This document shows, in pieces, positions 386-60,081 of a stretch of DNA of 64,000 nucleotides; position 1 is the stretch's first letter, and every line of letters begins with the position of its first letter. The DNA is from Cladosporium halotolerans (Eukaryota): assembly GCF_011745625.1 (NCBI RefSeq), contig NW_027191464.1, positions 496,001-560,000 of the forward strand. Reading direction: 5' to 3'. The notes under the pieces are model-generated. The model did not search any database. It had not been told where the DNA came from and was given only the letters and a program-made list of their open reading frames with translations. The translations under genes and the position numbers were made by a program.

Positions 386-1749
386 ATGGCTGACGCTTAC
401 GACGAAGAATTTTCCTCGCAGCATTCGACGATCTCTGGATATGCCTCGCAAACCTCTCTCTACGTCGTGGCCGTGATCTTCACGTTGATCGCTGGTCTCG
501 TCGTCCTCGGACGTGTGTATGCTCGCACGTTCGTTGCGAAGCAGGCAGGTCTAGATGACATCCTAATTATGCTCTCCGGTGTCCTCTCTATCACCTTCTG
601 TATTACTATCTACAAGCAGACGGAGTTTGGCATGGGCAAGCATGCGTGGCAATTCCCCCACAGCGACAAGGCCTACATCGTTCTCTGGTTCTGGGCGTCA
701 ATCTGGATCTACTACCTCTGTCTGGGTCTCACGAAGCTTTCAATCCTGATTCAGTATCTGCGTATCTTCCCGCAAGTCAACTTTCGTCGAATGTGCTGGG
801 CCATGGTTGGCATAATCATCGTTTGGACTCTGTGGGCCACTCTGAGTGCCATCTTCATGTGCACGCCAGTCAACGTCTTCTGGTCGTCCGCAGACTACTT
901 CGATGACCCTCGCTGCATGCCCAGATCGATCATTTGGTAAGTGTGTCGAGATATACTGAACTGGGGCAAGCCACTGACTTCTACAGGTACACCAACGCCG
1001 GCATCAACATCGTCACCGACTGCGCAATCGCCCTCCTGCCAATGAAAGTCATCCAAAGCCTCCAAATGCCCCGCCGCCAGCGCAACCTCCTCTACATCCT
1101 CTTCGGCGTTGGCTTTATGTAAGTCAAATGCCCCACCACACTCAATCCACCCCCCGCTAACCCTCCCCCCTCCAACAGCACCTGCTTCATCTCCCTCCTC
1201 CGCCTCGTCTACATCTACCCCATGGCCGTCAACCCAGACATAACCTGGCACTCCCCGCTCTTCTGCATCTGGTCCGCCGTCGAGCTCAACGTCGCCATCG
1301 TCTGCTCCTCCGCCCCCGCCCTCAAGAACCTCATCAAGCGCGTCTGGCCCCAGATCCTGCAGTCCTTCTCTTCCTCTGTCAAGCGCAGCGGTGGAAGTGG
1401 CGCCAGCGACTCCGCTGCCACAGCGATCAATTCCGCCAGCACGGTCTACAGCACGAAGGGCTCGACGCTCAAGGGCTCGCATGTGGCTTCCATCGAGGCG
1501 CAGACGATGGCCGCGCCAAAGAGGGGGTTTGTCAACCGGGCGCTGAGACTTTTTGGGCGTGGTGATGGGCGCGGCAGGCTGGGGAGTGATATTGCGCTTG
1601 ATGATGATGTGACGCATCTCAGGAGGGAAAGCACGAGTCCGCCGGCGTCGCATGTCGCGAGTAAGAGTATTGAGGTGCAGACTGCTGTTAATCAGAGGGT
1701 GGATGTTGAGGAGGGAAAAGGGGGGTTTGTGCTTGGGGAGCGGTGTTGA
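386..1749 (+). CDS. Pth11-like / rhodopsin-domain (SAT4-type) integral membrane protein, 3 exons (386-936, 987-1118, 1179-1749)
   Basis: Multi-TM pattern with family motifs RVYAR..GLDD, GMGKH, TKLSILIQYLRIF, CTPV..FW, NIVTD..LLP, WSAVELNVAIVCSSAPAL; GT-AG introns 937-986 and 1119-1178 restore one frame. Confidence 0.85.
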
Positions 1750-2271
1750 TGGGCTTCTCGTTTGTTCTGGTTGGTTTGCTGGGAGATGCTTCGATTCTTG
1801 GCCGTTTGGCGGTTTTCCCTTTCTACGCCGTGGTCATATTGGAGATTACGGCGATCCCAGACTGCATGTGTCGTCGATCGCGGCGGTGCAGACTTGGGTA
1901 ATTATTGTTTGGCTCGTTGGGTGGAAACAGTCCTTTCCATTTCTTTGCTGTCTGCTTTCTGTGTCTGTAAATCTAACCGTACTTCGACAACCTAACCTAC
2001 AAATTCAGAAGGATGAATCTATTCAGAATACGTTTCGCCATTGTGTCAATATTGACGGCCTGGGCAAGACCTCAGCTGCCGAGTGATACGTTGCTCGAGC
2101 ACTCATGGGAATGGGAGGATTGTCTGCGCACAAGTGAGATACGGTCGTTCATGAGTTTGAAAATCTGACTTCATATGGTACATTGCCTCCGACACTGCAG
2201 GCAAGATCGTCTGAGTTCGCACGCCCGCGTGCGTATGCGTATACATCCGCAGTATTACCCTCCGAATCATT

Positions 2272-3751
2272 TCACGCCTCTTCCTCCTCTTCCTCAGCAC
2301 CAACCTCCTCATCCTCATCCCACTCCTCCTCCCCACCCTCCCCATCCTCATACCCCTCCCCGTCCTCATCCTCCTCACTATCCTCTCCGCTCCCCTCGCT
2401 CTCCCCGCCCGAAGGATCATAGTCCTCCTCCTCCTCGTCCTCCGCATCCTGCAGCGCCTCCTCGGCCTTCTCCAGCTCGCCGCGCCCGTCGTCGTCGGCG
2501 GCCGCCTCCTCGCCTGCTGCGGGCTTGTTGACGTTGTACGCTTTCGCGCGCCGCTCGGCCGCCATGCTCGCGTCGTTCAGCGCGTGCGCGCGGATGTACG
2601 CGTCGATCGGCGCGAAGTCGGCCTGGTCGACCATGCTGAGCTCGTGCTCTTCGGTCTTCTCTTCGCTGCCGTTGGCTGCCGGGGTGAGGGTTGTGATGAC
2701 TATGTTGAAGGTGCGTTGGAGCACGGAGGTGAAGGAGATGCTTTCGATGGCGTGTAGGGGGAAGTAGCTGATGGGCTTCTTGAAGCCGAAAACTATGCCG
2801 GTGGAGAGGAGGAAGAGGTAGCCTGGGAGTTGGGGTGTTAGTTTCTATTGAGAGTGCGGCATTCCTTCACCGTGGACGAACCTTCTTTGCTTCCGCGGAA
2901 GGCTTTGGTGTGGAAGGCTTTCTCGCCTTTGCGGTGGCTCTGCGGGATCTCGCTCGCGAACTCGCGCTCGTCCGGCAGCACGAGCTTCTTCTCCAGGGAT
3001 GCCATGAAATGGTTCAGCTCCCGTCGCGTGACGTCTACAAATGTATCCTCCTCGCTCCCGTGTAATCGCGTCGACACGCTGACGACCTCCGGCTTTCCTT
3101 TCGTCTCGTTCATGGTCCAGACAAGCGGTTCTGCTGGTGAACCGTCGTAGCTCTGCGAGCCTGGGAGTGGGAAGACGACAAAGTTCTGCTGGCGTTGTGC
3201 TTTGTCGGGTACGGGCAAGCAGAACATGGTGTCGACATCTTCGCCGCGCAGGGTGTATTCGACGGCGCTCGTGGCTTGGTTGATCAGGCGGATTTGGCGA
3301 ATCAGCAGGTTGATGTTATCGTGGACAAACTGCAGCTTGAGCTTTTTGCGCAGTGGAGATGTGAAGCTGACGTCTTTACATTCAAAGTCGATCTCTGGCG
3401 GATTGGAGATTTCATAGCTCCCTGCTTTTGTCCTTATCGACCGCGCCGCAGCCTCGTCGCTTTGCTCTAGTTTGCGCTTCTTGGCCAACGGTTCTTCGGG
3501 CAATTGGTTGCCATTCCTGTGCGGCATTCCGTTGCTGACATGCTGCTGACTTCGCTGTGATACGACAAAGGTCGATATGTCCCTAAGCAGTTCGGGTATG
3601 CCGTTCTGGAAGTTCCCTGCGAAGTTGGTAAGTTGCGTTCGGCTTGTCTGCGTGAATGGATCAACACACTGGCAGCCTCTAGGATTCTGACATGCAAGTC
3701 GTGGTTACGACCAAATGCTTGCTCCACTATCTGCGCCGAATGAGAGTCCAT
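2272..3751 (-). CDS. RTT106: Rtt106-like histone chaperone (PH-like domain, acidic C-terminal tail), 3 exons
   Basis: Spliced product contains [64 protein letters not shown] and an E/D-rich tail; introns 3669-3617 and 2881-2823. Confidence 0.8.
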
Positions 3752-4842: not shown

Positions 4843-5739
4843 ATGCTCTTCAGAAATAATGTAATCTCTATTGTGCCCTTCCTCGCCGCTTGTAGTCTGG
4901 TCCTCGCCCAAGAATCGACAACGCAAGACGCATCACCCAAATCTTTCGCGACACCCGACCCATCACCATGGCCCACAGTCAGCGTCTTCTTGCCCGGCAG
5001 TCTGCACTTTCACGAAATGCCCGGGGAGGAGAAGAACTGGGCCGCTTCGGTCATCACCGCTGTATGTCGAGCACTAATCACAATGCATCACTCGAACGGA
5101 GCTTGACACTGACGAACCCACCCAGAACGATAGCCAAACCGCCTACGCCATAGGCTGCATCTCCGGTCCACTCAACGCCTCCACGCCCGTCTGCGGCTTG
5201 CAGTCCTCCATCACCGTCACCGGCGGCGAGAGCACCCTCATCTACACCTACAACCCCATCGTCACGACCGACAACGGAATGTACGTCTCTTTTCCCTCCC
5301 AGCCTTCCCTACCCCGTCGCCACCCAGACCCCAGTTTGCTAACCCCATCTCCAGGCCAGGCACATCCAACCCCGCCGCCGCCGGCCCTTCCAAACCCCCG
5401 CACTCCGGCGCCACGATCAACTGCAACCTCGTGGGCGGCACGCGCGCGACAGCAGCCACGTGCACTAGCAGCTCGCAGATTCCGGGGCTCGGGCTCGTGG
5501 GTTCTAGCAGTACGCTCGCGAGCACGCAGATCGATTATGCTACGCTGACGGTTACGGCGGGGAGGGAGTTGTTAGTGAGGGCGAGTGGGGAGGCGGGAAA
5601 TGGGGGTGGGGAGGGGAGCGCAGGGGGTGCAGGAGTGGGGGAGAGTGGTGCGAGGGGAGGGTTGGTTGGCGGAGAGGGGATGGTGGCGGTGCTTGGGGTG
5701 GGTTTGATGGGGTTGGTGCTTGGGGTGGGCGTTTTGTGA
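4843..5739 (+). CDS. Putative secreted GPI-anchored cell-wall protein, 3 exons
   Basis: N-terminal signal peptide (MLFRNNVISIVPFLAACSLVLA), AASVITA..T.YAIGC motif, Thr/Gly-rich body, hydrophobic C-terminus; introns 5062-5125 and 5281-5354. Confidence 0.7.
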
Positions 5740-6899
5740 AGGGTTCTTTTTTTATTTTTTTTGGGTTCTATTTTTTTGTTGCAACAGCTTGCGGCAATGC
5801 CCGGTTCAGCACGGCGATGGCGTTTGGGGCGTAGATTATTGGCTTGTAAGAAGTCCAGGAGATTTGATATCCGAGATAACTCTGGGAAACGGCTACAGAA
5901 GCGCCTTTTGAACATCATCTTCTCTATCCATGAGCATCTCCGGAAGCTGACTCCAGGCCCTTGCCACTCGCTTCTGACGCTTCGGCACAAGGCTTGTATT
6001 CCGACGAGAGCGTTCTGCATACGTCGACGGGGCCGCAATATGTTTTCATCAATGTGACCTCACACGATAAATATTGTGGGTGGGCAGATTTCGAAGGTCT
6101 AACCTATGCAAATGAGTAAGAAGTAAAAACCGGCTATTTGTCCAAGGAGCGACACATAGACTCAAAGCACGTTCACAGTGCCATGGGCCCACACAAAGTG
6201 GAGATTCGCAGGTTCTTGCTAGTACAGCGCAACACAGATGTCGTTGCCTTTTGTGTTTTCTACTTCTCAATTGCATGTCATCCCGCATCCAAGGCGATTT
6301 TGCCAATGCGGAGATGAAGCAAAAAGAGCGCAAGGTAAGACGTTGATTGAGGACGCGAGCGGCTCCAGGAGCGATGTCCGTAGGCCTTGCATCTTCATTT
6401 ACACGGTAGCCGATCGTGTTAGCAGCGCGACACAATCCTTACAAGAAAGCGCGCGGCGATGAAGGCAATGCCTCGAGGATTACTCTTCAAATGACCGTCT
6501 CTGACCCCGGTCCCATCTTGCGTGGCGGAGTCTCGACAAGTCTTTCTCTTGACGCATGTCTTCGAAACTACCTTTGGGCGTCGTTCTTGTTTCTAGCGCA
6601 TGTAAGCAAGACGCAGCAAGCAAGCGTTTGGTTGCAGCAAGAGCCGGGCGTCATACTGCGAATCGCTATCTTGCTTTCACTTCCCTCATGCCCAATGTGT
6701 CGCTGGGTGACCTGAGCCCATAGGCAGCGGAGGAATCGATTCTACCGACAGAAGAGTCGCTTCGCGATTCGGCTACGGCAGCGATTGCTTCGGAGCGATT
6801 ATGGCATTCCAGCAACCAGGACATCGATGAAAAGCAGCCAGGGTGCGAAGGCTCTTGCATCTTCATACAGGAAGTAGCCTGGCCTCTCCTGGCATCCAC

Positions 6900-9800: not shown

Positions 9801-12100
9801 GCACGATCATCGGGAGGTGACAGCAAGCGCCATGAAGACGGCGTTTTCAGACCTGGTCTCGCAGCAGCATGCCGAGCATAGCTTCAACTTTGTTCCGTCA
9901 AATGGTACAGGTTTTCCGCTGGTTGGCCTTGATGGAGCTGCAACGCTGGCCCACGGTCCGGCAGTTTGATCACCGGAGAATTTGGAAGACGTTTGAGAGG
10001 ACGCAACTTTGGTTGGACAGGTGCGCTCATCATTTCTGGATACTTCGGACCTCCAAGCTGTGACAGGAACAAGATGCGTTGGGCTCTCAGAACCCAGGGA
10101 TCCCCTCCGTGAGATTGATTGCCTGGCGAAGGCGAATGTGGCACACCTCGACACATGTTGGGAGATGCTCTATCCGCAAGCCAGTCATTCCCAAGCTCCG
10201 CTACCGGCCATGCTTCATAGACTTCAAAGTGCTCCATGTACGCGTTGCGGCGGACATCTGTCCAAGAAAACGCTCGGAGAACGGAGTACATGGCGGGTAT
10301 TCTTGCCACACGATGCAGTTCTTCCTCTGCGGGGCCTGCTGGATACTCTCCACGGTGCATCATTCATATCATCCGGCTCCTAGTCCTCCAGATCCAGGTC
10401 ATCCAGGTCCAGTCCATCCAGGTCCAATTCATCCAGGTCTAAGTGATCCAGGTCCAATCAGGAGTCCCCCGGCCCATGAGCCACCAAAGGAATTCATTGC
10501 CGCGTGCCAGCCGTACCCCATCTCCTACGCAATGTCCCACCTCTTACATTGCTCGCCATTCAGCAAGCCACAGCAAGAACTAGGCTTTGAGCTCGCCGCA
10601 TACCTCTTGACGAAAAGGCATTTGCTTTGAACATTCCTGCCGCCCCACTGTAACCCACTTATGCTTGTTGCTGCATGGAGGCACGCTCTACCGGTCTGGC
10701 GTTGGCTTTTTCCAACAAGATTGCGCTGGAGATATGCCTCCGCTGCCTCCAACGTATTCCCTCTCTTCCTTCGCTTTGCGGAGAATGGTCCAATGGTGCC
10801 AGTGTCTTCGCTAACGATTGGTCGCATGGCTCGACGGGGCCGATTTAAAGGCTTAATGCTTCCGGAGTTGTCCTGTTCCGAAAGGTGACAAACCGTCGAG
10901 CTGTCTCCGCCACTTGAGATATGAGGCTCTTTCAAGCGCTCAACCTCGTCTCACCTACTGGTGTTGCGATGGGCAATCAGCCATGCGTCGTCCTGTAAAC
11001 GGCTCGCGGGTTCTTGAGTCGGCGGTATCAACTTGCCACGACGCCGACGATGTCGAACATGCTGGCACAAATGCCCTGAAGATTGTTGCTGCCATGGTTT
11101 CCCAACAAGATTGACCTCGCTGCTCTGGTCTACGGCCCTTGTGCAGAGTCGCAGAGCAGAAACTGTTTGGTTCAAGGTTGCCACGCCACCAAGCTCGCAC
11201 TGTTCTGCTGTACCCATGCTTTTGTGTCGATGATCAGTCTCCAAGGTCGGCTGTGCGCTCGATCAACCGTTGTACCCTTCGATCAAGATGTCTGTCTCTT
11301 CGAAGCAAAAGATGGATTCGAGGGTGGAGATTGTCGTTCTGTATGACCGTGCGTTGGCGAACCAGGTCAGCCAAACCTGAGCGACGTCTATTGTGCGCTT
11401 CATCATCGCCGAATCGCTCGCGATGGGGACTGAGAATTCCGGAAATCGGTACGGATGCGAGCGTGGTTCTCGTGGTTCTGCTATCGGACCATGCTTTGGC
11501 ATCACAGGTCACCCAGCCCGGTTGCTTTTTGGTGGTGTCTCTCGCCATGACTGTGGCCTCTGCGGTCAAGAAGTCGGAGTATCTGATGCAGATGATGATT
11601 TTGGCCGTCACCGTCGTCAACGAGCTAAGGGCTATCATCGTCGCTCTGCGTCATGGCCATTTTTTGCCGTTGCAGGTCAGTCTGCGTGAGCGAGGGTCGT
11701 TGTTGCGCTCAGCCACTGCCATCGCCACGCGCGCCTTTATGGCCAAAGCAGTGTCTTCGAAGTGTATGACGAATCTTACGATCGTTGTCTTTGAGAAAGG
11801 CGATGGATGTCGCTCAGCTTGCAAGTCGCAAGGTGAGTGAGAGCTTGTCGGTCAGCGTGGGCGTGGTGACCGCCCGCCGCTCTGTCTCCGCCAAATGGCA
11901 GCCGTGCCGGCTCGATCGGTGCTGAATCACTGCGGACTCCAGCGTATGAACGTTGCGATGTCCGTGACCATGTTCTGGTCGATGTTGCTAATGCGGCGGG
12001 GTGTCGATGCCTGGTGACCCCTTGCTTGCTGGTGGGAAGGTGTTGGTCCAGCGGATGGTGCGCGCCAAAAAGTACGCCAGCGGTCACCCGCTCATCCAAG
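6900..12100 (-). pseudogene. Apparent degenerate coding remnant(s) of unidentified gene(s) or element
   Basis: Protein-like frames continue across isolated stops (e.g. 7606-7031 in one frame across TGA at 7322-7324; LDLD repeat frame near 10380-10460 bounded by TGA/TAG); no intact long ORF; family not recognised. Confidence 0.3.
10388..10460. repeat. Degenerate minisatellite, 5 copies of core ATCCAGGTC, mostly 15-bp period
   Basis: gATCCAGGTC ATCCAGGTCcagtcc ATCCAGGTCcaattc ATCCAGGTCtaagtg ATCCAGGTCcaatc seen directly. Confidence 0.8.
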
Positions 12101-14983
12101 GGGCTCCGTCCGCGACCACAACAGACTCCACCAAAGCACCTACTTGGCCCACAGAGTCTGTTTGAAGTGCTGCAAATGATCGCTTCGACTGCGTGTCTCT
12201 GCGCGATGATTTACAGTGCTCCAGGAAGCCGTGCTCCTCTGTTATCCAAAAGAAGCCCCCTAAGCCCGCATCCTTGCGGCTCAGTTACACGGCAAACTAC
12301 AGTCACTTGCTTTTCCTTCAAGCCTCCTGCTTTCCTGCGCTGAGAAAGGCTTCGCAATCGATGATGGGGTCGATCAAGTGCCTGAGGGATATGCAAATGC
12401 CATCAGGTTGCAAGGCGCTGGCGATGCCCTGTGTGCAATGGGCGTGCTGCAGGCGATAGACATAGCGGTACGGTCGCAGCCTCAGTGCCGCCGCCCCATA
12501 CTAGGTCACAGCACTCTGGCAACAGACCGCGCAAGGGGCGGATCATCATCGCTAGCACTCTCGTAAAGGCGTGGGATGCACTGTTACGTCCTTTGAGCCC
12601 TATTGCTGCAGGAAACCGGTTGGGGGCTACCAGGCCTTTCATGCCATGGATGATCAGGTCAACATCGCAGCTCGCTGGTGGCTTCTACGCGAAGCATTCT
12701 CAGTGAGAACGATCGGTGACCAAGCACTGCAATAGGATTATGTGGCAAGCCTTTGGCACGAGCCTCAAGTAGTAGCAACAGCCTGCCGCATGGTCCCAAG
12801 CAAGGAGGTGACGACCGGGCACAATAGTCCGTCGAACCAAGCCGGTCCACCCCCAAAGACCTGAAGGTGTGTCACGTGGGCCTTAATGCATATAAGCGTT
12901 GATTGTGTCCAAAACGTCACCCTTCGGGGTTAGGCGTACAAATCCTGATGTCGCAGCGGTAGAGGTAAGGCCCAGACTAAGGATCACTTGGGTGCATCGT
13001 ACGCTGAAATGACACCTGCAATTTTTGGAAACACAATTCGAGCTGAGTTCAATTCTCGCCGACATCATCTTTTTGATGGCTTTTTGCACTTTGCCTTTGT
13101 CCGATCGACCACGGCATCTAGCCACACCATCAGCCGCTCGTGCCTTGCTCTTGCCGATGCAACAGAGCAGCTAGCTGATTGATGCGACAATTGTCACTAT
13201 ACAGTGACATTCCCGTGATGCGGTGGTTGGTAACCCTGCTTCGTAGATGTCTCTTCCGGTCGCCGTTCCGCCGAGCGCGGGAGTCTCCTCAAGCCTGTGG
13301 CCCTCGCTTGCAGGGCAACGGCTCTCCCAGCCACCACGGCAGGCCAATTTAACCATTCGAACGAACAGCCCGTACTCTTGATCATTCTTTTGCTCTTCAA
13401 GCATCAAGCAGTGCGAGGGCGGACCGCGCCGGATCACACTTCCCACCAGCGTACAGCATCAGCTCAAGGCAGGCCTCCGCACCTCCGAGGAGCGGGACCG
13501 CGATCTTGGTAGCCGCAAACCGATATGTGATCGGGGGCTACCGTGCAACGCTGGAAAATCAGACTGCTCGGGCGCTCTTTACTGCCCCAGCGCCCTGACC
13601 AATGCAACAATGCGGCCATTTTTGCACCAAGTCAACATCCATCGTCAGAAGCGGGCGGGTCCGGACCGCTTACTCGACAGTGGCCACAACTAGCAGCCTG
13701 GCAAGGCAAGGCTCCTGGAAGATTGTTCAAGGAGTTCCTTGTGGCATATGAAGGCGGCATGAGTGCCCACACGCCAGCCAGAACGCGACGAGACATGAGC
13801 TGGAGGTGGTTCCAATGGGCGGCGGACTGTCACGGCGGTCACGGCGGTCACGGATATCGAGTGTTCTGGACGCTTGCCGCTCGCTCTGACAACACATCTT
13901 GGTGGGCGAACCTTCGTGAATGGGATGCGAGAGTTCCGTTGAGCTTGCAAGGCTGAGACACCCGTTTTTGACTTCGTCTCTCAGCGATGTCAAAAGACAC
14001 CAACGTTCCAGCAACATCGCCGAGAAGCTTCTCCAGCGGCTGGCCGGCACTTTTGAGGACAGATGCTTTCGGATCCAGGAAGGAAGTTCATCTTATTCCG
14101 GAGGAGATTTGACAAGAGATACGCGGGTACCTCGGTCTGCTTTGGAAGGCTTTCATACAATGCTACAGGACATCCTCGCTAGGTGCGTATTATTTTGATA
14201 CAATGTCAGCGTGGCAGTGGACCGTTGCCCTACTTGTCATTCTCTGGATCGTTCCGTTCTGCAGCTTCGCCCGGGCTCTTCGTGCTTCTGCACCAAGAAA
14301 AGTATGGGGGCCATCCACAAGATCTGCCGGCACCCCTGGAACAGTGACCACAATTATCATGCAAAATAACAGATAACAACGACGTACATAGTGTTAAGTC
14401 ACGCGAGACTGTGAGATGGGCTGAAGGGCGAAGAGGTGAGGTCGAAATTTAGCCCTCTGCGTTTCCAGCCACGAGTGGGGGCCGGAGACTTCGAGCATTG
14501 CCTTTTTGTGCCATAGCGTAACTGACCTATCCATTTGCCTGACACGCACGTCTTTTGAAGACACATAAATACTTGATGCTTACTCCTTATTTCGTACATC
14601 ATCTGGTGATCAACCATGTGCAGAAAGGGCCATGCGGATTAGCACAGCACCTCAAGATCGATCCTTGGCACTTGAAGCCATTTTCCAGCTGGATCTGCAA
14701 GGCATTTTACGATTGCATTATTTGCAACGACAGGTGATATCAGGACATTCAACGTCGATCGTACTACCAGTAGTTCTGTTCCATGAGCTTCGCATACACG
14801 CATTACGGTTACGTTCACTCGAGGCGCACGAAAAGAGCATCGCTTTTGAATCAGCGGACTCAGCCAAAATCCGCTGCTGTAGCAGAAGCGCGTAAACTCG
14901 CTGTGGCACCTCAAGGAATTGCAGACGAGTTCTATTGCTCTTGTTCTATTTTTACTTATACACAATGTCGCAACCGCAGAATG

Positions 14984-16755
14984 CTAACCGCACTTCTGAG
15001 GTTCACCACCGCCTAATATGTTCGTCAGCAAAAAGCACTCTCAAATCAAGATCCTGAGGGATGGAAGGAGCTTACCTCGTATCATCTTCGCAATTGCCTG
15101 CATCAGACTAATCCCCATAACAATACAGCCGAACGTGATGCACACGTACGCCGCATACGTCTCCCACGTCCTCCGCTTCGTCAACTTGACGAAACACAGC
15201 GGCGGCAGAATGTACGCGAGCGCGCACGCGCTGGTGGCGCCCACGAGCTCGAACACGACGCCAATGTCGCACGTGATGAGCGAGAGGGTCATTGCCGAGA
15301 CAACGAGCGAGGTCGTGAAGATGAGGTGGCGGTTGGGCTGGTGCGGCTCGCCGGGGAAATAGTATTCTGTCATGACTTCACGGCAGACGAAGCATTCCAG
15401 GGGTAGCGTTGTGATCATGTTCAGGCCGAAGCAGAGGCGTGCGATGTTGACCATGACGTTGTCAGTGGGAAAGTTGTTGAGCACGTTGCCTTTGGTCATG
15501 TCGCCGAAGGTGATGTAGCCGCCCAGTGCCATGGCGAGACAGGCTACCATGGAGATGCCGGTGGAGTAGTGAGTGACGCGGGCGAAGCGATCCATTGTAG
15601 GCTTGCGCAGAGAGCCATAAATGAGAAGGCTGTTGTGGTGGCAGACGAAGGCGAAGGAGATGACGCCAATCGCTTGGAAGACGCCGTCGTTGATCAAGAG
15701 GCTGCCGCGGAGTTGGCCACGCATGTCAGGAGGTAGCCTTGGACCTTGCGTTACGATCGTGATCACAATGATCCCCATGCTTACGAGAGCGAAAGTGCTG
15801 GCTTTCGAAAGCTGTGAAGTGTTAGTAAGAGATTCGAACTAACTCCAAGCTGAGTGCATACCATTGCAATGTCTCTATACAAAGATAGCGGGTATGATAA
15901 CCCAAGCACGAAGATAACGATAGTCGCGCGCCGGTCTGTGAGCAGCCAAAGAATCGGCGTTTCAGGGAGTCCAGGGAAGATAGCAGCTAGCACGTGCGGT
16001 ATCGTGTCACCAATGATGATGCAGAAGGCTACCATGCCGCCAAACGCAAAGGCCCACTGTGCAACAGAGATCGCAACGAGGCCAGACTTGCCGAAACAGT
16101 GCTGCATCGTTGCTTGGAAAGAGTTTGCTCCGCTGAGCTTGGAGTTTGTGACAATCAGCCGGATCGTCCAGTCCACGGTCACAGTCAAAGCCACGAGCAA
16201 AAACACGCCAGTGAAGAGACCTGCTTGTCTGAAGGCATAAGGCTGTCCAATGATTCCGGCGCCAATGATACTGTTCGCCATGTTCATAAAGGCACTCTTC
16301 ATGCCACTCTTCGGCCGAGCGGATTCCAGGAGATCATCTGGATTAAAGTCCTCGGTGGCCACAGTAACACTGGGCGCCTCGATCTCGGTCAAGAGCGGTA
16401 CTCGATGTCCGTCATTCCCCCCGGGGGAGTCAAGGCTATGATCTTCCGCTAGGTAATCCTCCTCCTCGATCCAATCCCTTCCATTTGCGGTGCCATTCGG
16501 TTCCGCTGAGGCCCGCGGTGAGGCAACGTCAAATCGTACGCGGTTCGAGGTTCTCGGTGTACCGTTCGCTCTAGGCTGCGCGAATGAAGATTGCCGTCGA
16601 GGCAGTTGTTGTCTTGCGCCTTGTGCTTTCGGCTGGTTCACGGACTCAGGACCGGGCGATCCATCCCTAGACTCCTGGAGCAGTCCGGCTGCTTCTTCCT
16701 CGTCGCCGTCTCCGGCGCGAGAGGAGTTGCGAGCGTTGCTATTGTCTCTGGCCAT
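14984..16755 (-). CDS. AVT2: Vacuolar amino-acid transporter, Avt2/SLC38 (Aa_trans) family, 3 exons
   Basis: AFMNMANSIIGAGIIGQPYAF, FAFGGMVAFCIIIGDTIP, SFAFVCHHN, ELVGATSACALAYILPPLC motifs; introns 15861-15812 and 15075-15013. Confidence 0.88.
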
Positions 16756-17234: not shown

Positions 17235-18278
17235 ATGAATCTCTCAGCATTAAAAGCAAAAACCCTCCAGCACATCGCGTTCCTGACCGGCGCGCCAACA
17301 GCAGGCACAAAGGCTAGCATAATATCAGACCTCCAGACATCCCTCCACCAACCACGACTCACCAAAAATGCCACCCGCATCCTCAGCGTCGACATGGGCA
17401 TCCGCAACCTGGCCTACTGCGTAATCGACGTCCCGCCTCAAACACCTTCTCCAAAAACCAAAACAACCCTCCACGCCACCCAATGGAAACGACTCGACCT
17501 CCTCTCGCGCCTCAGCTCCAGCAGCTCTTCTCCCGACCTCCCCTCAACAACCCCCGAGCCCCCGCGCAGGAAACTCACCACCGCCGCCGCCACAGCTACC
17601 CACCCCAAACCCTCCTTCACCCCCAGCACCATGTCCCGCGCCGCGCTGACCGTCGCCCTCGACCTCCTCGCCCACAGCCCGGACACAATCCTCATCGAGC
17701 GCCAGCGCTTCCGCTCCAACGGCTCCTCCGCCATCCAGGAATGGACCGTCCGCGTCAACATGCTCGAGAGCATGCTGTGGGCGTGCTTTGAGACGCTGAA
17801 ATCTGCCCGCTCCCAGGACGAGGGGAAGGCGTTTCCAAAGCTGCACGAGTGCAGTCCTAAGCGCGTTGCGGGGTTCTGGGCTGCGAGGCCGGGGGCGCAG
17901 GGCGTGCCGGGGGGTTTGTTGGGGGAGGGGTTTGGGCTGCTGGAGGAAGGGGCTGGTGTGGATGCGGGGGGGAGGAAGGCGAAGAAGGCGGCGGATGTGA
18001 AGAAGGAGAAGATTGCGGTGCTGCGGTCGTGGCTGGATGGGAGTGGGGGTGTGGAGCTTGTGTTGGAGGGGGAGACGGAGATGACGGCTAAGGCTTTCGC
18101 CCCGGGGGTGAGGAGGAGGGGGTCGAAGGCGCTGAGGGAGGGTGAGAGCTTTTCGAGCCAGGAGACGAAGCTGGACGATTTGGCGGATTGCATGCTTCAG
18201 GGTGCGGCTTGGGTGCGGTGGGAGGAGAATAGGCGTGCCATTTTGCAGGCTTTCGAGGAGCAGTCGAGAGAGCGCTGA
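17235..18278 (+). CDS. CCE1: Mitochondrial Holliday-junction resolvase, Ydc2/Cce1 family
   Basis: N-terminal SAP-like segment, RNase H-fold motifs ILSVDMGIRNLAYC, ILIERQRFRS, KLDDLADCMLQG; single exon 347 aa. Confidence 0.88.
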   Translation: MNLSALKAKTLQHIAFLTGAPTAGTKASIISDLQTSLHQPRLTKNATRILSVDMGIRNLAYCVIDVPPQTPSPKTKTTLHATQWKRLDLLSRLSSSSSSPDLPSTTPEPPRRKLTTAAATATHPKPSFTPSTMSRAALTVALDLLAHSPDTILIERQRFRSNGSSAIQEWTVRVNMLESMLWACFETLKSARSQDEGKAFPKLHECSPKRVAGFWAARPGAQGVPGGLLGEGFGLLEEGAGVDAGGRKAKKAADVKKEKIAVLRSWLDGSGGVELVLEGETEMTAKAFAPGVRRRGSKALREGESFSSQETKLDDLADCMLQGAAWVRWEENRRAILQAFEEQSRER

Positions 18279-18835
18279 GACCTTACGTGCCTCTTTGGGC
18301 CGTGTTTCGTGGGCAGAGAGCTCGACGTGGAGCAACAGTATTGGCATGCTCTAGTACCAACTCCAGCAGGACAACGCTTTGCATGAGGGCTTAGAGCAAC
18401 GTCAAAGCCGACACTACTACCAATGGCTCGAAGCCGACCACCAGAGAGGCTAGCCACCATGCTGCAGGCAACGAACGAATCGGATTGGAAAGAAGGCGCT
18501 GTAGGGTGCCTTGCCCCATATACAGATAACATGTACCGATCGGCACAGCGTCTCGAAACTCAGAGTGTCAAGGTTGCCGCCGCAGCATGGGTAGCTACGA
18601 CACGCCGAGGCGCTTGAAAGTGATGTACAGGCACGCTGGGAACGAACTTTCACAGCAAAGTTTACGAAGAACAATACAAAGACCAACGTGGGAACCATGA
18701 ATCTTCAAAAGAGAGTTTTTGTCAAAGGAAAATTCAAATACAAATTCGTTACGCTAGATGGGATCTCGCTTTTAAATCCAAAACCAAACAGAAAATTCAG
18801 GCCGTCGTAATCATACCTCCGCTGCCGCGAGGCAA

Positions 18836-20327
<1,492 letters not shown>

Positions 20328-45166: not shown

Positions 45167-46563
45167 ATGACACAGACTCCCACACTTAAGGTCATGATTT
45201 GCGGTGCAGGCATAGCTGGCCTATGCGCTGGCATCGCCCTAGCAAAACAAGGCCACCAAGTCATCATCCTCGAACGAGCGCAAGCTCTCTCTCCCGCAGG
45301 TGCAGGCATCCATCTACCGCCCAACGCAACCCTTCTGCTCAAGGAATGGAACATCCTTGACAAGCTCGCTGGCAAGGCAGTCGTTCCTGCGGGCTTTGTC
45401 TTTAGACGTTATGCTGATAGTTCGGTTCTCGCGAGAGCCGCGGAGAGGAAGAAGCAGGACGGAACGGGGACGGGAACACCGTAGGTCGATTGGACGGCCT
45501 GCGTCACGAGTTGATGGCTGACAAAGCGCTTAGGTACTGGTCTGTCAAGCGCTCTGACTACCAGGAAGTTCTACACGAGGCTGCTCTCGAAGCGGGCTGC
45601 GAGCTTCGCCTGGGCCAGAAAATCGCAGGCATCGACGAGGATGCTCCCGGTGTAGAACTCCAGTCTGGAGATGTTGTTCGCGGAGACCTCGTCGTCATCG
45701 CTGACGGTGATATCGCCCCCAATTCCTCTCTCCATCGAACTAAGCTGACTGGCAGCATTCTAGGCATCAAATCCGCTCTCCGCCAACTCATTCTCCCCTC
45801 CCAAGACGTCTCAGCCATCTCCCACCCCCTCTCCACCTACCGCGCCTGGGCACCCCTCGAGGCCCTAAACTCAGACCCCAACGTGGCTTCCCTCCTCAAG
45901 CAACCAGCAACGAACATCTGGCTCGGCCCCGCCCGCCACATGATCACCTACCCCGCCTCCAACAACACCATCCTCGCCATCAACGGCACCTACCCCTCCC
46001 GCAACGACTCCGCCGGCGAATGGAACCACGCCGCCAGCGTCGCCGAAATCCAGCGGCGCTTCCACGACTTCGACCCCGTCGCCAAGGCCATCCTCGCGCA
46101 CGCCCGCGACTGCAAGGCCTGGGCTCTCGCCGAGGTCCCGCGCCTGCCGCGCTGGCGCTCGCAGAGCGGCAGAGTCGTCTTGCTCGGCGACGCGGCGCAC
46201 GGCATGCTGCAGTTCCTGGCGCAGGGGGCGGCGATGGCGACGGAGGACGCGGGGGCGCTGGCGGAGAGTTTGGCGGGGGTGAAGGGGCGGGAGGAGGTGC
46301 CGAGGGCGATGTGGATCTATGAGCGGAGTCGGCGGTGGAGGTGTGAGAGGGTGCAGGCGCAGGCGAGGCGGAATGGAGATTTTATCCATATGTTCGATGG
46401 TGAGGAGCAGGAGTGTAGGGATCGGAAGTTGAAGGGCGAGGCGAGGGAGGGGGACTGGGAGGTTGATTGTGGTCCGTTGATGGATCCGACGTTCACGCAG
46501 TGGTTGTATGGGCATGATACGATTCCGCATGTGCGGAAGGTGAGGGCTGCCGCGGAAGTGTGA
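45167..46563 (+). CDS. FAD-dependent monooxygenase (salicylate hydroxylase-like, group A), 3 exons
   Basis: GAGIAGL dinucleotide motif, GAGIHLPPN, ADGIKS (after removing intron 45707-45763), VLLGDAAHGMLQFLAQGAAMATED; intron 45481-45533. Confidence 0.9.
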
Positions 46564-47128
46564 GTTGCTTTGAGGGAGGAGAGGGTCGTGAGTTCTGTGT
46601 TGAAGTAGACATGCACAATGCTGATGTAAGAAAAGAAAGAAATCGCAAAGTAGTCACATAATGCAAACCGTTTTGTTCAATTGCCCCTAAAGTTCGTATC
46701 TCGCTCAAACTTAAGATACAAGAGGGCCCGAGTAACTAGAGCAGAAGACGGGACAGACCGGAGACGGACGACGCAATCAGCCAAATACCGATCCGCCTCG
46801 AATCGCCCGCGAACCCGCTCGCCAGCCATGCTGGCATCTCTTCTGAAAGTCAACGAAACGCCATCGGCCAGGATATCTTCGCTATGCGCCCCTTTCGAGT
46901 ACCCGCCACGTTCCTGAGGGAGGAGCACAAAAACTTGGAAAGAAAAAGAGGCGCTGGAAGCTGTTGTGAAGCTTTCAACAGGGCAATAGCCCGACCTCTC
47001 TGTCGGCACTCGGAGTATGGGCCAGGTCGTCGTCGCTGGGCATGTCAAATGCCCAACGCTTCAGCCTCCCAGTTCACCCAACCCTGTCCTTGGCCAGCAC
47101 CTTTGCTCAGCTCAATGTCTTTGTCGAG

Positions 47129-53199: not shown

Positions 53200-55427
53200 A
53201 TGGCGAGACTCAACGAGCCGCCCGCCGCTCCTGCTGTGCCTGCAACAGCGCTGTCTGGAGGAGTAGGAGGAGGTGCGGAGAGCGTAGATGCCCGTAAGTT
53301 CACAAGATCTCGTCTTCCCACATCGGCCAAGCAAACATTGTCAATCGTTCCTTGCCATGTTCATCGCACGGCGAGACGATGCGCACGAAATCGCGCCCTC
53401 CACCGCGGACTACATCCGCTAACTTCGACGAAGTCAAGCGCCGCTTCATCCGCCAGAACCGCGACCTCGCCAAGAACAACTCGTCGCAGTCGTTGCGCAT
53501 CCGTGGGCTCGAGATCGAGGTCAGCAGGCTGCTGCAGACGAATCTCGAGCTGAGGGAGGAGCTGCTGCGCGCGCGAAATGCGGAGCACAATGCGCGGAAG
53601 GAGAGCTCGAAGGAGGGCGTAAGAGGGTTCAAGGAGGAGATGATGGCGAAGCTGAGGGAGTTGAGTGGGATTGTGGAGGGAATTGAGGAGATGCGGGAGA
53701 ACCAAGAGGAGCAGTTCGCGGAAAGGGAGGACAGGAGGATGAGCATACTGTCGCAGATGGAGTTTCGTGAGAGGCAACCGCTGGCGGATCTCATGCGGGA
53801 TTGTCAGATGCCGACGATTGATGAGGACAAGAGCCACCCTAGGCGGACGCTGGACGCGACGGAGATCAAGGCTATCAGGCTCAGTGATGGCAGCAGCAAT
53901 GGGAGCCCTGATCTCGGACCGCCACCGGTCGCCAGATTCGAGTGTCAAGAACCTATCAAGTTCGACGCACACGCTTCTGAGGACCAACAGGAGACGCAAG
54001 CGGAGGCAGAAGTGGAGCCTGAGAAGAAGACAAGCGAAGAAGACCTGCCTGCAGCTCTGTCAATCAACCTTGAGACGAGGCGGAAACGGAAGGACAGTCA
54101 GCCGAAACTTGAACTGCGGCGACACTCTATCCTTCCTCCTCCTTCACCTTCAAGCAGTGAAGGAGACGTGAGTGCACCTACACTTCGCACTGGCGCTAAA
54201 AGGAAGTTGGCCGACCGAGACCTGGACAAGCCCATCAAAGCCCCCAGCAAAACAGACTTCACCTTCAATCGCAAGGCTTCAACAGAACCGACGAAGACCA
54301 ACTCAGAAGAGCAGGTCGAGCCGGCCGAGAAGGAGGAAACGGTTGAGATCCAAGCTCCCGCACAACAGTCAACACGTAGAGTTTTGGGCGACAAGAGCGT
54401 CAACATGTCGCCCAGGAAGGCCGTCGTGGAATCAGGAAAGCCCGGCAAAGTCGACCTCAAGAAACCTGCGCAACCCAAGTTCGGCGCCGCTAAGGATCGC
54501 CCCCCTACTCGGAGACCCAGGGTATCAGCGATTCCACCTCCACTGCAAGGACCGGAAGTCAGTGTCGCCACCATCGAGCTCCCTCCCGCTTCAGAGCCTA
54601 CAAAACACTCCCAGACCACGGCACCCAACACTCCAGCCGCACCCGACCTCTTCTCGCCTACACCCTCCGAACCCTCCGTGGGACCAAACGAGCGAGCACC
54701 AACTCCTCCCCCCACCGGCCTTACCAACACAATGAGCGAGCCCGCTCGACCATCCCGCCGCGCCCGCTCAGCCGTCAACTACGCAGAGCCCAGCCTGAAC
54801 GCCAAAATGCGCCGCCAGGACAAGAGCCTCATGGACGCCGTCACGGGCCTGCAGCACCACCGCCTCGCTATGAGCGCGTCGGCGGAGCGCAAGGCGCGCA
54901 ACGCGGTTGTCGTCAAAGACGAGCCGGCCGACGAGGATGCTTGGAAGAATCTCCCCGAAGCCAGCCAGGCGGCTCTTTCGTCTGCGAGAGCTCGCGCAGC
55001 GAGTCCGCTGGAGTCCAGGAGCGGCGACATGGGCAGCATTGACTCGTTCGCGAAGCCTGAAGGCACTAACCACCAGGACTCTTCGACGGCTTCCGATTCC
55101 CGCTCCCAATCTCACCACCGCCGCCGCTCCTCTTCCACGCACGACCGCCTCCCCAGCTCGCACTCCGACGCCTCCCTCGACGACGCCGCGAAGAAACTGC
55201 AGGAGCTCGACCTCTACGACTTCAAAGACTCGTCGTCGTCGTCTTCGCCGCCCGAGGCCGCGGCTGTCGCGAGGGCTTCGGCTGCCGGCGCCGCGCCAAG
55301 AGCGCATCGGAGGCACTCGTCGATCCCGAAGGATGTGAGTAAGGGAGTTGAGGGGGCGAGGGGGAGTGCTGGGGGAGGAGGAAGGCAGGCGGGTGGGGCG
55401 AGTAGGCGGCGTAGTATGATGACCTAG
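53200..55427 (+). CDS. SGO1: Shugoshin, 2 exons
   Basis: MARLNEPP start, N-terminal coiled coil LKRRFIRQNRDLAKNNSSQSLRIRGLE, C-terminal basic SGO motif RPSRRARSAVNYAEPSLNAKMRR; intron 53294-53433. Confidence 0.9.
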
Positions 55428-57175
55428 CTTTGAGCCCTTTTGGGGGTTCTGGATGATTATGATGGAGTTTTGGAGGGGAGGGTTGTTTTTCTTTGGTATT
55501 TTTTTTTGATAATGATGATGGGGTTCGATCGGTTGGGTTGAATGCCTTGCTGCTGTTGTTCTAGCGTAACGAAGATTCTCTGTGTAGTTTGGACATATCG
55601 CTTCTCGATTCACATCGTTACTTACGTCGTGCGACATTGTCAGCCTTATTCTGAGTCAATGCAAGCACGCTTGAAAGGGTCACCGAGCAAAGCCCAAATG
55701 CCCGTGGAATTCTCGCCTAGCGTCACGACGATGCTTAGTCGAGACGAGCCATCACCAGAGGTGGCATCGAACAATGCCTTGCGTCACAGGAATCTGGGAA
55801 TGCTCACGAGGCCTCGCCATCCGCCCACCCTTGACCGACTCGCGAGATTATGGATATCGTAGACCCGAACACAGTTTATCACAGATCCATCTGCTTCATG
55901 GCTGCCTGAGGTTTCTCGCCTGATCCTTGAGTGAGATTCACGAGACGTGAGCTCACACGAGCTCACGCGAATTTCAGCTGAAGCGCGTCTCCCGCTGACA
56001 CGAACGCGCGTACGGCACGCAGAAGACGGTCTAGAACACAAAGACCAGCAGATGCTACTGCAATAATACCAGGGCATGTACTATTGTACATCACCACTGA
56101 CGTCGACGAGCAAGCGTCCGACTCCACAAGGCAGCATCATCACCCGCCCAGCGATCTCTCTGCCAACACACACAAGCAAAAAATGATGCTTCGCGCCGCC
56201 GATCTGCGCGCCCGGGGTGCTGAAGAACGGAGTGGAATACGGAGTGCTCGGCTGGCCGCAGCAAACTCCTGCGGCCCAAACTGCTTGCGAGGCTAGTAGT
56301 GCCCTGCGCGGAGGCTGCTCCCCCTTGTCGGGCCTAGTGGAAGTCTGGCACCGCCGGAGGTTTTGTCTGGGGTGCGCTGGCGCCCGCGGGAGCGATGGAC
56401 GATGAGTGGTGAAAATTGCCCGCCGTTGGGTTTTGTGGGATGAGGGTGGTGTAGTGTGGTGTAGTGTGGTGTGAGGTGGAGATGATTCACGGCGAGGATG
56501 CGCGTGGAGGAGATGGGGAGATGGGCCTGGAGAAGACGGCGGTATCGCCGATTGCGTCGAACACCTCACGCATGCTTCTCTGGTGAACACTCTATTCGCG
56601 GAGGGTGGTGCGGCATCAGGCGAAGATGAGCAGGGCTGCCACGGCTGCTGCGCGCGGTGCAGCGACGGTGGCGGCGCTCAGCGCAAGCTTGGAGCATCCC
56701 ACCCACCGAGCCACCGAGCCCAGACGCCAGGAATAGCCCGCTGAGCCCGTTACGAGTCCGCCGGCGCAGGCACCACCACGCCAGACTGCCACGGCGCCGC
56801 CGGCCGCCATGCCTCCACGCCTGCCCGGAGCCCATCTCCTTCTCTCCGCCTCGCTCGTAAATCACTCCGTCGTCAATACTACCACTGCAAACCACCAACT
56901 CAACACCACCCGGCTGTCATCCTAGCCCGGTCGCCACGCTCGCTTGCGCCCTCACCCACACCACGCCTCCCTCCAACTTCACTACCTTCGCTATACTGCT
57001 TCGGGAAGGAGCGTCACGAGAGCTGGAAATTGCACCCGCCAGCCAGCGCCATCCGCCATATTCGCCAATCAAACCCCAGCCGCACACCCTACCAAGAACC
57101 AGAGAATCTTCCACGCCGCCGCGCCCTGCAAGCGAGAGGCCACAGTCGCGCCGCACGTCTATCACTACCGCAGCC

Positions 57176-58225: not shown

Positions 58226-59084
58226 AAGGCTGTCTTTGCGAAGAGTACGGATGGAATACGAACACTCCCCGGCTCTGTCATTCTGCTTTCATCTGGATGT
58301 TCCCCGATCACGATCGGAAGGACATACTACCAATGCTGCATTTCGAGCGTCTTACGAAACCAATCTGCATATATCTAGGAGTTTGGAAGGAAGAAACGCA
58401 CCATACCAGGACATATGTGCAGATTTAAAGGGACACGACAACGCGACCATCAGGAGGAAAACCTTCCTCTTTGGACGATTTTTGGCGTTCCAAGTTCCAA
58501 AATTTGACCCGGCGTGGTCGACCTGTCTTCTGCCCTGCCACATCATTTGGATTATTTCTTTTTGTTTTGTTCATATTGTCCCTTTCTAATTCTGGCGGCT
58601 CCAGAGCCACCTTTTAAGACTAGTAATATATTTTTTTTTCACGATATATCCTGTTGATTTAGTATCTATATACTGTGCAGGCAATTCTGGTGCATGTACC
58701 GGGAACTGTTAATTAAGCTATATACGGCCTTTGACTCACTTCACTTCTTTCCTTTCAATACAATGTTTCCTTGCATGCAGCGCCAGGCTCGCTTATTTTG
58801 TCACTGGGCCTGTAAATTGGCTGTATATTGCTGCAGCAGCCAGTCCGGAGAGCTGACTTGCTGCTGAAAGCTTCGTACCTTACCGCGTGCGGTGTCGAGA
58901 TTCGGTTCGCCGAAGGAAGCGATCGATGTAACCTCACATGAGTGTGCATATTGTCTGCTTTGTGTTTGCAGGAGTGTCCACCTTTACAATTTGTGACTTT
59001 CTTTCGCTTCCCTTATCATTTCCGGTAGAGAATAACTACACACTTCAAAAGACTTCCATATCATAATACCGAAAAGCCTCCACA

Positions 59085-60081
59085 ATGTCAACCGACCAGC
59101 AACCCCCGTCGTCCTCAATCGATTACCAGACCCTCACCCGCGAACGCTGGGACGAGCGCGCCCCGATCGTAAGCAGACCATTTCCACCACAATTCTAAGC
59201 GAAACCCGCCCTTGTCTTCCTTCATTGACGATCCGCCCAGCACGCTTCCTCCCCAACCTACAACCTCGCCCACCTAATCGCCTCCCCCACCGCCCTCTCC
59301 GACGCCCTCACCTTCGACCTCCCACGCCTGCCCCCCCTTGCCGGGAAATCCATCGCCCACTTACAGTGCCACATCGGCTCTGACGCGCTCTCGCTCGCCC
59401 GCTTGGGCGCGCAGCGCGTCGTGGGGCTCGATTTCAGCGGCGCGAGTGTGCGCGAGGCGCGCGCGCTGGCTGGCAAAGCGGCTGGGGGCGAGAGGTGCGA
59501 GTTCGTCGAGGGGGACGTCTATGATTCCGTGGAGCTGCTGGGCGAGCGGGCGTTCGACGTTGTTTTTGTGAATGTGGGTTCTCTGGCTTGGTTGCCGGAT
59601 GTGAGGCGGTGGGCGAGGGTCGTGGCGGGTCTGATGAGGAGTGGTGGTGGGGAGTTCTTTATGAGGGAGGTGCATCCTTCCTTGCTTGCTGTTGAGGGCG
59701 GGGAGGGAGGGAGGTTGGCGGTCGAGTATTCTTATTTCGAGGTTGTGGAGCCCGTTGTGACGGATTCGAGCTGGACGTATGTTAAGACGGAGGAGGGTGG
59801 GGAGGTGCCGAAGGTTAGGAAGTGTGTGGAGTGGAACCATGGGTTGGGTGAGATTGTGAGTGCGTTGCTGGGGGAGGGGTTGAGGATCACGATGCTCGTG
59901 GAGCATCGGAGTGTGCCTTACGAGGCTGTTAGGGGACATATGGTGGAAATTGGAGGTGGTGAGTTTTGCATGTGTTTAGGAGTGGATGTCTTGCTGACTT
60001 GTATGCGTAGGTGAGTGGGCCTTGAAGGAGGGAAGGGATCGCTTGCCGCTGTCTTTCACCCTACGTGCTGTCAAGGACTAA
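59085..60081 (+). CDS. Class I SAM-dependent methyltransferase, 3 exons
   Basis: WDERAPIH, AHLQCHIGSDALSLARLGA..VVGLDFS, FDVVF, WLPDVRRWA, EVHP, EWNHGLGEIVSALL, RLPLSFTL; introns 59169-59240 and 59959-60010. Confidence 0.85.

What the first reader, a model, noticed from the sequence alone, without database searches (positions are those of the whole stretch)
17440..18280. Recurrent sharp C/A-rich to G/T-rich strand-skew flips inside genes, independent of gene orientation
Seen: in CCE1 the + strand has 31 C/9 G at 17521-17580 and 9 C/31 G at 18061-18120, with the switch near 17790. Synonymous codons change from C/A-ending to G/T-ending. The same left-C/right-G polarity recurs by eye near 1480, 2580 (minus-strand RTT106), 5450, 15240 (minus-strand AVT2), 36780, 46190, 51480, 53520, 55270, 59440 and 61110 (minus-strand SDR), often around a CG-rich core. 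The pattern is strand-symmetric, so simple transcription bias does not explain it. Known: this polarity matches leading/lagging-strand skew around bidirectional replication origins. Inference: long-lived origins, recombination/DSB hotspots with asymmetric mutation, or another bidirectional ssDNA-exposing process written into coding DNA every few kb.
Basis: partly seen in the sequence, partly recalled or inferred. Interest (0 to 1): 0.72.

Follow-up and report, generated by a model that had tools for sequence, protein, structure and literature searches.

The report
Mirror skew dipoles near gene ends
About a quarter of the genes examined in this fungus carry, a few hundred bases before their stop codon, a one-kilobase patch where silent positions flip from mostly C to mostly G in mirror image; this is an extreme form of a published but unexplained fungal gene bias and may mark spots where DNA is repeatedly broken and repaired.

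Summary
The flips are real. In CCE1 (17235-18278) four-fold sites go from C75/G10/A20/T7 to C8/G58/A1/T17. In 864 kb of this genome C-to-G flips outnumber G-to-C flips 86 to 24, and introns share the skew. They are not independent of genes: 79 of 86 lie in gene models, a median 308 bp before the stop, on either strand. McLean and Tirosh (2011) published a 5'-C/3'-G fungal gradient. Here it is a roughly 1 kb dipole anchored at the 3' end, with a GC peak and an intron-poor CGCG-rich core; its A-to-G shift is equal in both arms on opposite strands. That points to one bidirectional DNA process. I favour recurrent break repair or recombination (about 0.4, inferred, not shown) over transcription-linked mutation (0.3) and origins (0.12; yeast origin polarity is opposite). 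Close Cladosporium-like relatives lack it; many distant ascomycetes have it. The scan had noted the pattern before on other pieces of this genome (16 notes fit) and in other fungi.

The parts
17235..18278 (+). CCE1/Ydc2 mitochondrial resolvase gene, one exon, 347 aa; host of the dipole
   Evidence: Translation; Pfam PF09159 E 6e-61; homologs named cruciform cutting endonuclease 1
17330..17765 (+). Left arm, C/A-rich on the plus strand, T nearly absent at silent sites
   Evidence: Edge near 17329 and G-C = -99 in 300 bp; four-fold sites of codons 1-177 C75 A20 G10 T7
17700..17830 (.). Flip centre (best point 17765, 513 bp before the stop), GC 0.64
   Evidence: last run of C-ending four-fold codons ends near codon 168, G-ending from about codon 174
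17766..18240 (+). Right arm, G/T-rich on the plus strand, A nearly absent at silent sites; protein here shifted to Gly/Glu/Val relative to Cladosporium homologs
   Evidence: Edge near 18237; four-fold G58 T17 C8 A1; alignment; amino-acid index 0.66 vs mean 0.00 in 48 Cladosporium-like homologs
18836..20327 (-). Convergent neighbour, glutamate dehydrogenase; strong codon bias, no dipole (internal control)
   Evidence: Gene model, Pfam ELFV_dehydrog, step score 44
14984..16755 (-).
   Evidence: syntenic with CCE1 in Cladosporium-like loci
970..1800 (+). Dipole centred at 1442, 307 bp before the stop of gene 386-1749 (fungal rhodopsin domain)
2178..2900 (-). Dipole centred at 2556, 284 bp before the stop of minus-strand gene 2272-3527 (PH_18 domain, fits RTT106)
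5000..5863 (+). Dipole centred at 5430, 309 bp before the stop of gene model 5017-5739; G arm runs about 120 bp past the stop
45711..46609 (+). Dipole centred at 46162, 401 bp before the stop of gene 45167-46563 (FAD_binding_3)
59076..60038 (+). Dipole centred at 59402, 679 bp before the stop of gene 59085-60081 (methyltransferase domain)
54900..55592 (+). Dipole centred at 55252, 175 bp before the stop of gene model 53379-55427; the same gene has a one-sided step at 53502 near its start

Best explanation
Each dipole is the long-term footprint of one bidirectional DNA event that recurs at a fixed place about 300 bp before the stop codon (roughly 400-500 bp inside the transcript end) of some genes. 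On both sides the strand whose 5' end faces the centre has gained G for A and, less strongly, T or G for C, over about 500 bp. Shown: position, width, mirror symmetry, GC peak, effect on introns, flanks and amino acids. Inferred: the event is a double-strand break repaired by homologous recombination. The strand with its 5' end at the centre is the one resected and refilled, so either strand-specific biased mismatch repair in heteroduplex DNA (a drive, which best explains the amplitude) or unopposed G/T-gaining errors of repair synthesis would give this polarity. Chromatin at the 3' end of genes would set the site (inferred, untested).
For: Without any selection of genes, 61 genes >=2 kb show four-fold skew -0.43 to -0.49 at 1000-600 bp before the stop, +0.20 in the last 100 bp, only -0.24 at the start, and four-fold GC rising from 0.58 to 0.77. 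In genes >=1.6 kb 24 of 27 flips lie within 800 bp of the stop, 2 of 27 within 800 bp of the start; in 41 genes >=2.3 kb 13 have a strong step in the last 900 bp and 1 in the first 900 bp. In 81 strong genes of 299, the log-odds shift of A against G is -1.8 to -2.9 on the coding strand right and -1.2 to -2.6 on the template strand left, and tracks sequence context alike (Spearman 0.93 over 9 contexts; C retention 0.75). Four-fold GC peaks near 0.89 at the centre; the profile holds when centres are defined without four-fold sites. Arms are 571 and 470 bp (medians), close to Z. tritici conversion tracts of 539 and 432 bp (PMC10294615 passages). Z. tritici hotspots fall mostly in exons (1435 of 2578; 132 in introns) with no enrichment at transcription starts (PMC5844332 passages); centres here avoid introns (2 in 157 windows vs 53 in 436). 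Strain divergence is mosaic (0 differences in 1-1105, 213 in 1131-7425 for run X3), as in a recombining species. Yeast nascent lagging strands are G/T-rich (deduced from PMC3459929), the sign seen on the refilled strand. No link to a codon-bias expression proxy (rho 0.10, n 87).
Against: No break, crossover or conversion map exists for this organism and none was overlaid. The G arm ends a median 95 bp after the stop whatever the flip-to-stop distance, which looks transcript-bounded. Convergent genes carry more dipoles (35% of 159 vs 20% of 140, p 0.003). The C-versus-T shift is not symmetric (negative on the right, near zero or positive on the left). In Z. tritici GC-biased conversion is weak or absent and hotspots turn over fast (6% shared with a sister species), whereas CCE1 has a dipole in many distant lineages. 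Plain deamination of resected single strands predicts the opposite polarity (inference). Friedmanniomyces CCE1 has the dipole and I found nothing on its recombination (listing only). Neighbouring genes correlate only weakly (rho about 0.10, p 0.05-0.10). Gene models are my own HMM, checked by Pfam for 30 of 44 top and 34 of 42 bottom genes.
Confidence: 0.4

Rival explanations
1. Transcription-linked mutation or repair at the 3' end of genes (the McLean-Tirosh mutational model in sharper form): termination pausing, R-loops, or an antisense or cryptic bidirectional transcript starting at the CGCG-rich core exposes the non-template strands, giving A-to-G and C-to-T on the strand whose 5' end faces the centre.
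For: Anchored to the 3' end; G arm ends about 95 bp after the stop; more frequent in convergent pairs; published average gradient in most fungi; polarity equals single-strand deamination of a non-template strand; CGCG is 1.6-1.7 fold over synonymous shuffles and 20-23 per kb vs 5-7 in weak genes; canonical G-quadruplex patterns in 34 of 81 right arms.
Against: True 5' ends of the same genes show only skew -0.23 against -0.53/+0.50 in the arms, with C-rich (not G-rich) coding strand after the start, so a start-site effect has the wrong size and sign. No scaling with the expression proxy; the 30 most codon-biased genes have few dipoles (10%) and five HSP70-family genes show no G arm, though codon selection may mask it. 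One-directional transcription does not explain a mirror-equal arm on the template strand.
Confidence: 0.3
2. Replication origins in gene 3' ends, with a short-range mutational signature of initiation.
For: Polarity matches bacteria and human skew jumps. Human efficient origins carry a local GC rise, skews, breaks at the centre and polymerase delta on both strands within about 2 kb (PMC9645720 passages; PMC11874978 section 13).
Against: In three yeasts the leading strand is A/C-rich, so origins give the opposite jump, of 9% amplitude, decaying over about 20 kb; a large local jump at Candida centromeres was judged unrelated to replication for these reasons. Here arms return to baseline within 700-900 bp, flips occur about once per 10 kb and often 1 kb apart, and lie in exons.
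Confidence: 0.12
3. Selection on RNA or protein: a long 3' stem-loop, codon choice, C-avoidance for elongation speed, or amino-acid needs.
For: Complementary arms could pair; amino-acid composition shifts strongly (Pro 0.099 left vs 0.031 right, Gly 0.050 vs 0.128).
Against: Folding energy is no better than local synonymous shuffles (mean z 0.03, 40 of 81 genes folded); introns and 3' flanks share the skew; syntenic Cladosporium-like CCE1 genes lack it; no functional class stands out.
Confidence: 0.08

Closest known systems
Opposite GC skews at the 5' and 3' ends of fungal genes (McLean and Tirosh 2011, PMC3315797; parts 1-3 of 4 of the text read; supplement not read)
   Same: Coding strand C-rich upstream and G-rich near the stop; affects four-fold sites, flanks and amino acids; only some genes; cause unknown; data set included filamentous ascomycetes.
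   Different: The paper describes averaged 5', middle and 3' regimes with the strongest C bias at the promoter, flat AT skew and skew negatively correlated with GC. Here the C arm is tied to the 3' end in long genes, the unit is a sharp 1 kb dipole with a GC peak, A/T flips too at silent sites, and the arms mirror each other.
Replication-origin skew jumps (Marsolier-Kergoat 2012, PMC3459929, passages and section 16; Murat 2022, PMC9645720, passages)
   Same: Sharp sign change of GC and TA skew; same sign as human and bacterial origins; local GC rise as at human origins.
   Different: Opposite sign to yeast origins, far larger amplitude, range under 1 kb, exonic and gene-end anchored.
Intragenic recombination hotspots and gene conversion in Zymoseptoria (PMC5844332 passages; PMC10294615 passages and part 1 of 10 of Table S2)
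   Same: Exonic location, not at promoters; tract lengths of 430-540 bp match the arms; Z. tritici CCE1 shows the amino-acid dipole (0.41-0.45).
   Different: No skew reported (0 occurrences of the word in PMC5844332); GC bias weak; hotspots short-lived; no 3'-end preference reported in the passages seen.
C-rich skew at plant and fungal transcription starts (Fujimori 2005, PMC555766; abstract only)
   Same: A mild C bias is present before and after start codons here.
   Different: It is one-sided, weak, and a separate signal from the 3' dipole.
Local skew jumps at Candida albicans centromeres (as described in PMC3459929 section 16)
   Same: Large amplitude (74%), short range (about 3 kb), judged not replicative.
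   Different: One per chromosome and non-genic; here in about a quarter of genes.

Membership tests
McLean-Tirosh within-gene fungal skew | Coding strand C-biased upstream and G-biased at the stop, both orientations | tested here: met
McLean-Tirosh within-gene fungal skew | Present at four-fold sites and extending past the stop | tested here: met
McLean-Tirosh within-gene fungal skew | Strongest C bias at the 5' end or promoter | tested here: not met
   First 300 bp -0.23 vs left arm -0.53 in 30 long strong genes
McLean-Tirosh within-gene fungal skew | AT skew uniform along the gene | tested here: not met
   Four-fold A>T left, T>A right; introns TA -0.18 vs +0.35
Yeast-type replication origin skew | Leading strand A/C-rich (downward jump at the origin) | tested here: not met
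   Flips are upward; direction in filamentous fungi is not known to me
Yeast-type replication origin skew | Small amplitude, decay over tens of kb | tested here: not met
   Baseline regained within 700-900 bp
Yeast-type replication origin skew | ORC/MCM binding and fork-direction switch | not testable with these tools
   No such data for this genome
Recombination hotspot with biased conversion | Central GC peak at neutral sites over a tract-length scale | tested here: met
   Four-fold GC about 0.89 at centre vs 0.58-0.62 in interiors; arm lengths
Recombination hotspot with biased conversion | Fixation bias in allele-frequency spectrum | tested here: inconclusive
   Only 40 of 1554 variant rows shown
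Recombination hotspot with biased conversion | Excess of breaks, crossovers or conversions at the centre | not testable with these tools
   Z. tritici tract coordinates seen but no Z. tritici DNA available here
Recombination hotspot with biased conversion | Absent from non-recombining regions such as the mating-type idiomorph | tested here: inconclusive
   PF04769 search found nothing; locus not located
Selected mRNA stem-loop | Folding more stable than composition-matched synonymous shuffles | tested here: not met
   Mean z 0.03, n 40

The most novel reading that the evidence does not exclude
In many filamentous ascomycetes, recombination-initiating breaks fall inside the last few hundred bases of genes, and their repair carries a strand-specific conversion bias strong enough to rewrite silent sites and variable amino acids. 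The dipoles would then be a sequence-only map of long-lived hotspots, and the averaged fungal 5'-C/3'-G gradient of 2011 would be largely their smear.
Probability: 0.33. Interest if true: 0.82.

Novelty: new variant of a known kind. Interest (0 to 1): 0.52.

Why it matters
The fungal within-gene skew has had no cause since 2011. Resolving it into a sharp, 3'-anchored, mirror-symmetric unit with a definable centre turns it into a direct overlap test against existing crossover and conversion maps. If it is recombination, hotspots could be read from one genome, and a strand-specific form of biased conversion would be new. Whatever the cause, it shifts amino-acid composition (Pro/Thr/His before the flip, Gly/Glu/Val after), which can mislead codon-bias, selection and phylogenetic analyses in these fungi.

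Tried and rejected
Gene-independent placement: rejected (79 of 86 flips in models >=100 aa that cover 54%). Mid-gene or 5'-to-3' gradient, my first reading: rejected by long genes. RNA hairpin: rejected. Functional class: none seen among 44 of the top 45 and 42 of the bottom 45 genes scanned (1 and 3 left out as edge fragments or for length). Expression link: none with an upstream codon proxy (87 of 299 genes long enough). A specific motif: only alternating CG words are enriched, which may simply follow from context-dependent loss of CC on both strands. Polarised substitution spectrum from four runs: the variant table showed 40 of 1554 rows, chosen by support; by my hand count of 10 singletons in arms, 7 went against the arm bias and 3 with it, too few to use. 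Lower contig depth of run X7 over dipoles is not interpretable. Mating-type test failed; searches for GAPDH, EF1-alpha, enolase, actin, PGK and SPO11 got no answer. In one search, 47 of 80 ortholog loci were dropped for lacking an unbroken frame with both motifs; one search covers all 80. Paper searches for a description of a 3'-anchored dipole or its link to recombination (two gave no paper) found none; the library lacks most subscription papers. PMC3845650 and PMC13712754 (passages) did not bear on it.

Full report
Setting. The window is G000:C35:496001-560000 of a 27.9 Mb assembly. The gene at 17235-18278 encodes a 347-aa Ydc2/CCE1 resolvase; the nearest named homologs are from Cladosporium at 54-57% identity, so the organism is a capnodialean Dothideomycete that I did not identify further. 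I analysed 864 kb of the genome (C35 96-560 kb, C1 400-600 kb, C2 200-400 kb) with a self-trained gene finder: 303 models of at least 150 aa, 299 with neighbours on both sides. Pfam hits in the predicted frame were found for 30 of 44 top-scoring and 34 of 42 bottom-scoring genes.

The observation. In CCE1 the flip is at 17765; four-fold sites change from C75 A20 G10 T7 to G58 T17 C8 A1. The 12 listed positions all show an upward step, six strong, three moderate, three weak. Upward two-armed flips number 52 against 18 downward in 464 kb, with about 1 of each in 60-nt block shuffles, and 86 against 24 in 864 kb. Introns in left arms have skew -0.51, in right arms +0.19, in gene interiors -0.09.

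Where the flips sit. 79 of 86 upward flips lie in gene models that cover 54% of the sequence; 23 of 24 downward flips lie between genes (10 convergent, 7 tandem, 6 divergent). Flips fall in plus and minus genes alike (35 and 39) at a median 308 bp before the stop; in genes of at least 1.6 kb, 24 of 27 are within 800 bp of the stop and 2 within 800 bp of the start. With no selection of genes, 61 long genes show four-fold skew near -0.48 at 900-600 bp before the stop, +0.20 in the last 100 bp and four-fold GC rising from 0.58 to 0.77. McLean and Tirosh described the averaged gradient in 2011 (PMC3315797; parts 1-3 of 4 read). My first reading was a mid-gene gradient; earlier notes of this scan pointed to the gene end, and searches confirmed that independently.

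Anatomy. In 81 strong genes of 299, four-fold sites reach C 0.68, T 0.05 on the left and G 0.64, A 0.04 on the right; two-fold pyrimidine codons go from 96% C to 64% T, two-fold purine codons from 56% A to 92% G; GC peaks near 0.89 at the centre. The profile holds when centres are defined without four-fold sites, with most of the transition within about 150 bp on each side. Arms measure 571 and 470 bp and the G arm ends a median 95 bp after the stop. On the strand whose 5' end faces the centre, the A-against-G shift is nearly equal in both arms and follows context alike (Spearman 0.93, 9 contexts); the C-against-T shift is weaker and not equal. Centres are rich in CGCG (1.6-1.7 fold over synonymous shuffles) and poor in introns (2 in 157 windows vs 53 in 436). 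Real 5' ends show only skew -0.23. These features differ from the published three-regime model and argue for one bidirectional process.

Which genes and lineages. Dipoles are commoner in convergent genes (35% of 159 vs 20% of 140), unrelated to an upstream codon-bias proxy (rho 0.10, n 87), rare among the 30 most codon-biased genes (10%; 13 of 15 scanned had Pfam hits, among them ribosomal L5, eIF4E and peroxiredoxin) and absent from five HSP70-family genes; codon selection could mask them there. Among 80 CCE1 loci from metagenomes, the closest ones (L042-L050, L052, 65-94% to named Cladosporium proteins; several keep both neighbours) have no flip at the threshold in the gene or in flanks up to 21 kb, whereas many distant loci do (for example L055, L073, L082, L088, L100, L115). 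In 20 of those loci, 7 of 7 flips in long gene models (two are one gene in near-identical loci) lie within 800 bp of the stop (models from a finder trained on another species). An amino-acid index that tracks the four-fold step (rho 0.63, n 28) is high for this gene, its 93% relative, Friedmanniomyces endolithicus and Zymoseptoria tritici, and near zero for Cladosporium and Hortaea.

Mechanism. Selection on RNA folding is rejected (mean z 0.03, 40 genes). Origins: in three yeasts the leading strand is A/C-rich, the jump is 9% and decays over 20 kb (PMC3459929), all unlike this; human origins do carry a short-range signature with GC rise (PMC9645720 passages), so the idea is not dead (0.12). 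Transcription at the 3' end fits the anchoring, the end of the G arm and the convergent excess, but not the weak and oppositely signed signal at true starts, the mirror arm, or the lack of scaling with expression (0.3). Break repair fits width, GC peak, exonic position and mirror symmetry; Z. tritici tracts are 432-539 bp and its hotspots are mostly exonic, and strains of this species show mosaic divergence. Against it: weak GC bias and fast hotspot turnover in Z. tritici, and no direct map. The polarity needs biased heteroduplex repair or errors of refill synthesis, since deamination of resected ends would give the reverse; that polymerase delta favours G:T mispairs, that CGCG is a yeast RSC motif, and that mammalian hotspots show a skew flip are recalled, not from any call. 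I give this 0.4; about 0.1 is left for causes not listed.

Novelty. The averaged phenomenon is known; eight paper searches found no description of a 3'-anchored mirror dipole or of a link to recombination, within a library that lacks most subscription papers. Supplements of PMC3315797 were not read and may show related profiles. The scan had noted the pattern on other pieces of this genome and in Elsinoe. Verdict: real, gene-end anchored, a new variant of a known and unexplained kind, with a clear test on published Z. tritici data.

Noticed in passing
window 5740-14983: About 9 kb with no gene model of 150 aa or more, no strong dipole, and the highest strain divergence seen (146 differences in 5783-7425 and 128 in 8779-10435 for run X2).
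   Followed up: no
window 56213-56900: An upward step at 56213 and the window's strongest downward flip at 56694 (arms +68/-86, GC 0.71) lie outside gene models, upstream of gene 57176; possibly an unannotated gene end next to a C-rich 5' region.
   Followed up: no
G000 C35:125277, 150202, 300192, 451383, 452739; C1:456980; C2:241228: Seven upward dipoles with no gene model; 18 open frames over them gave no Pfam hit. They may be unannotated or non-coding genes, or true gene-free dipoles.
   Followed up: partly
window 1-1490: Run X3 is identical to the window over 1-1105 and differs from 1135 on, so a haplotype boundary falls in or near the dipole at 1442; a single case.
   Followed up: partly
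window 1176-1316: A 141-bp piece of the rhodopsin-domain gene matches a second contig at about 90% in the laid runs, suggesting a paralog.
   Followed up: no
81 strong genes in 864 kb: TGA stops are 51 of 81 in dipole genes and 38 of 87 in weak genes; canonical G-quadruplex patterns occur in 34 right arms (coding strand) and 30 left arms (template strand).
   Followed up: partly
window 17890-17990 (CCE1 residues about 220-250): A Pro/Ser/Ala/Asp-rich stretch of Cladosporium homologs is replaced by a Gly/Glu/Leu-rich one, while catalytic motifs are kept: the bias rewrites variable protein sequence.
   Followed up: partly
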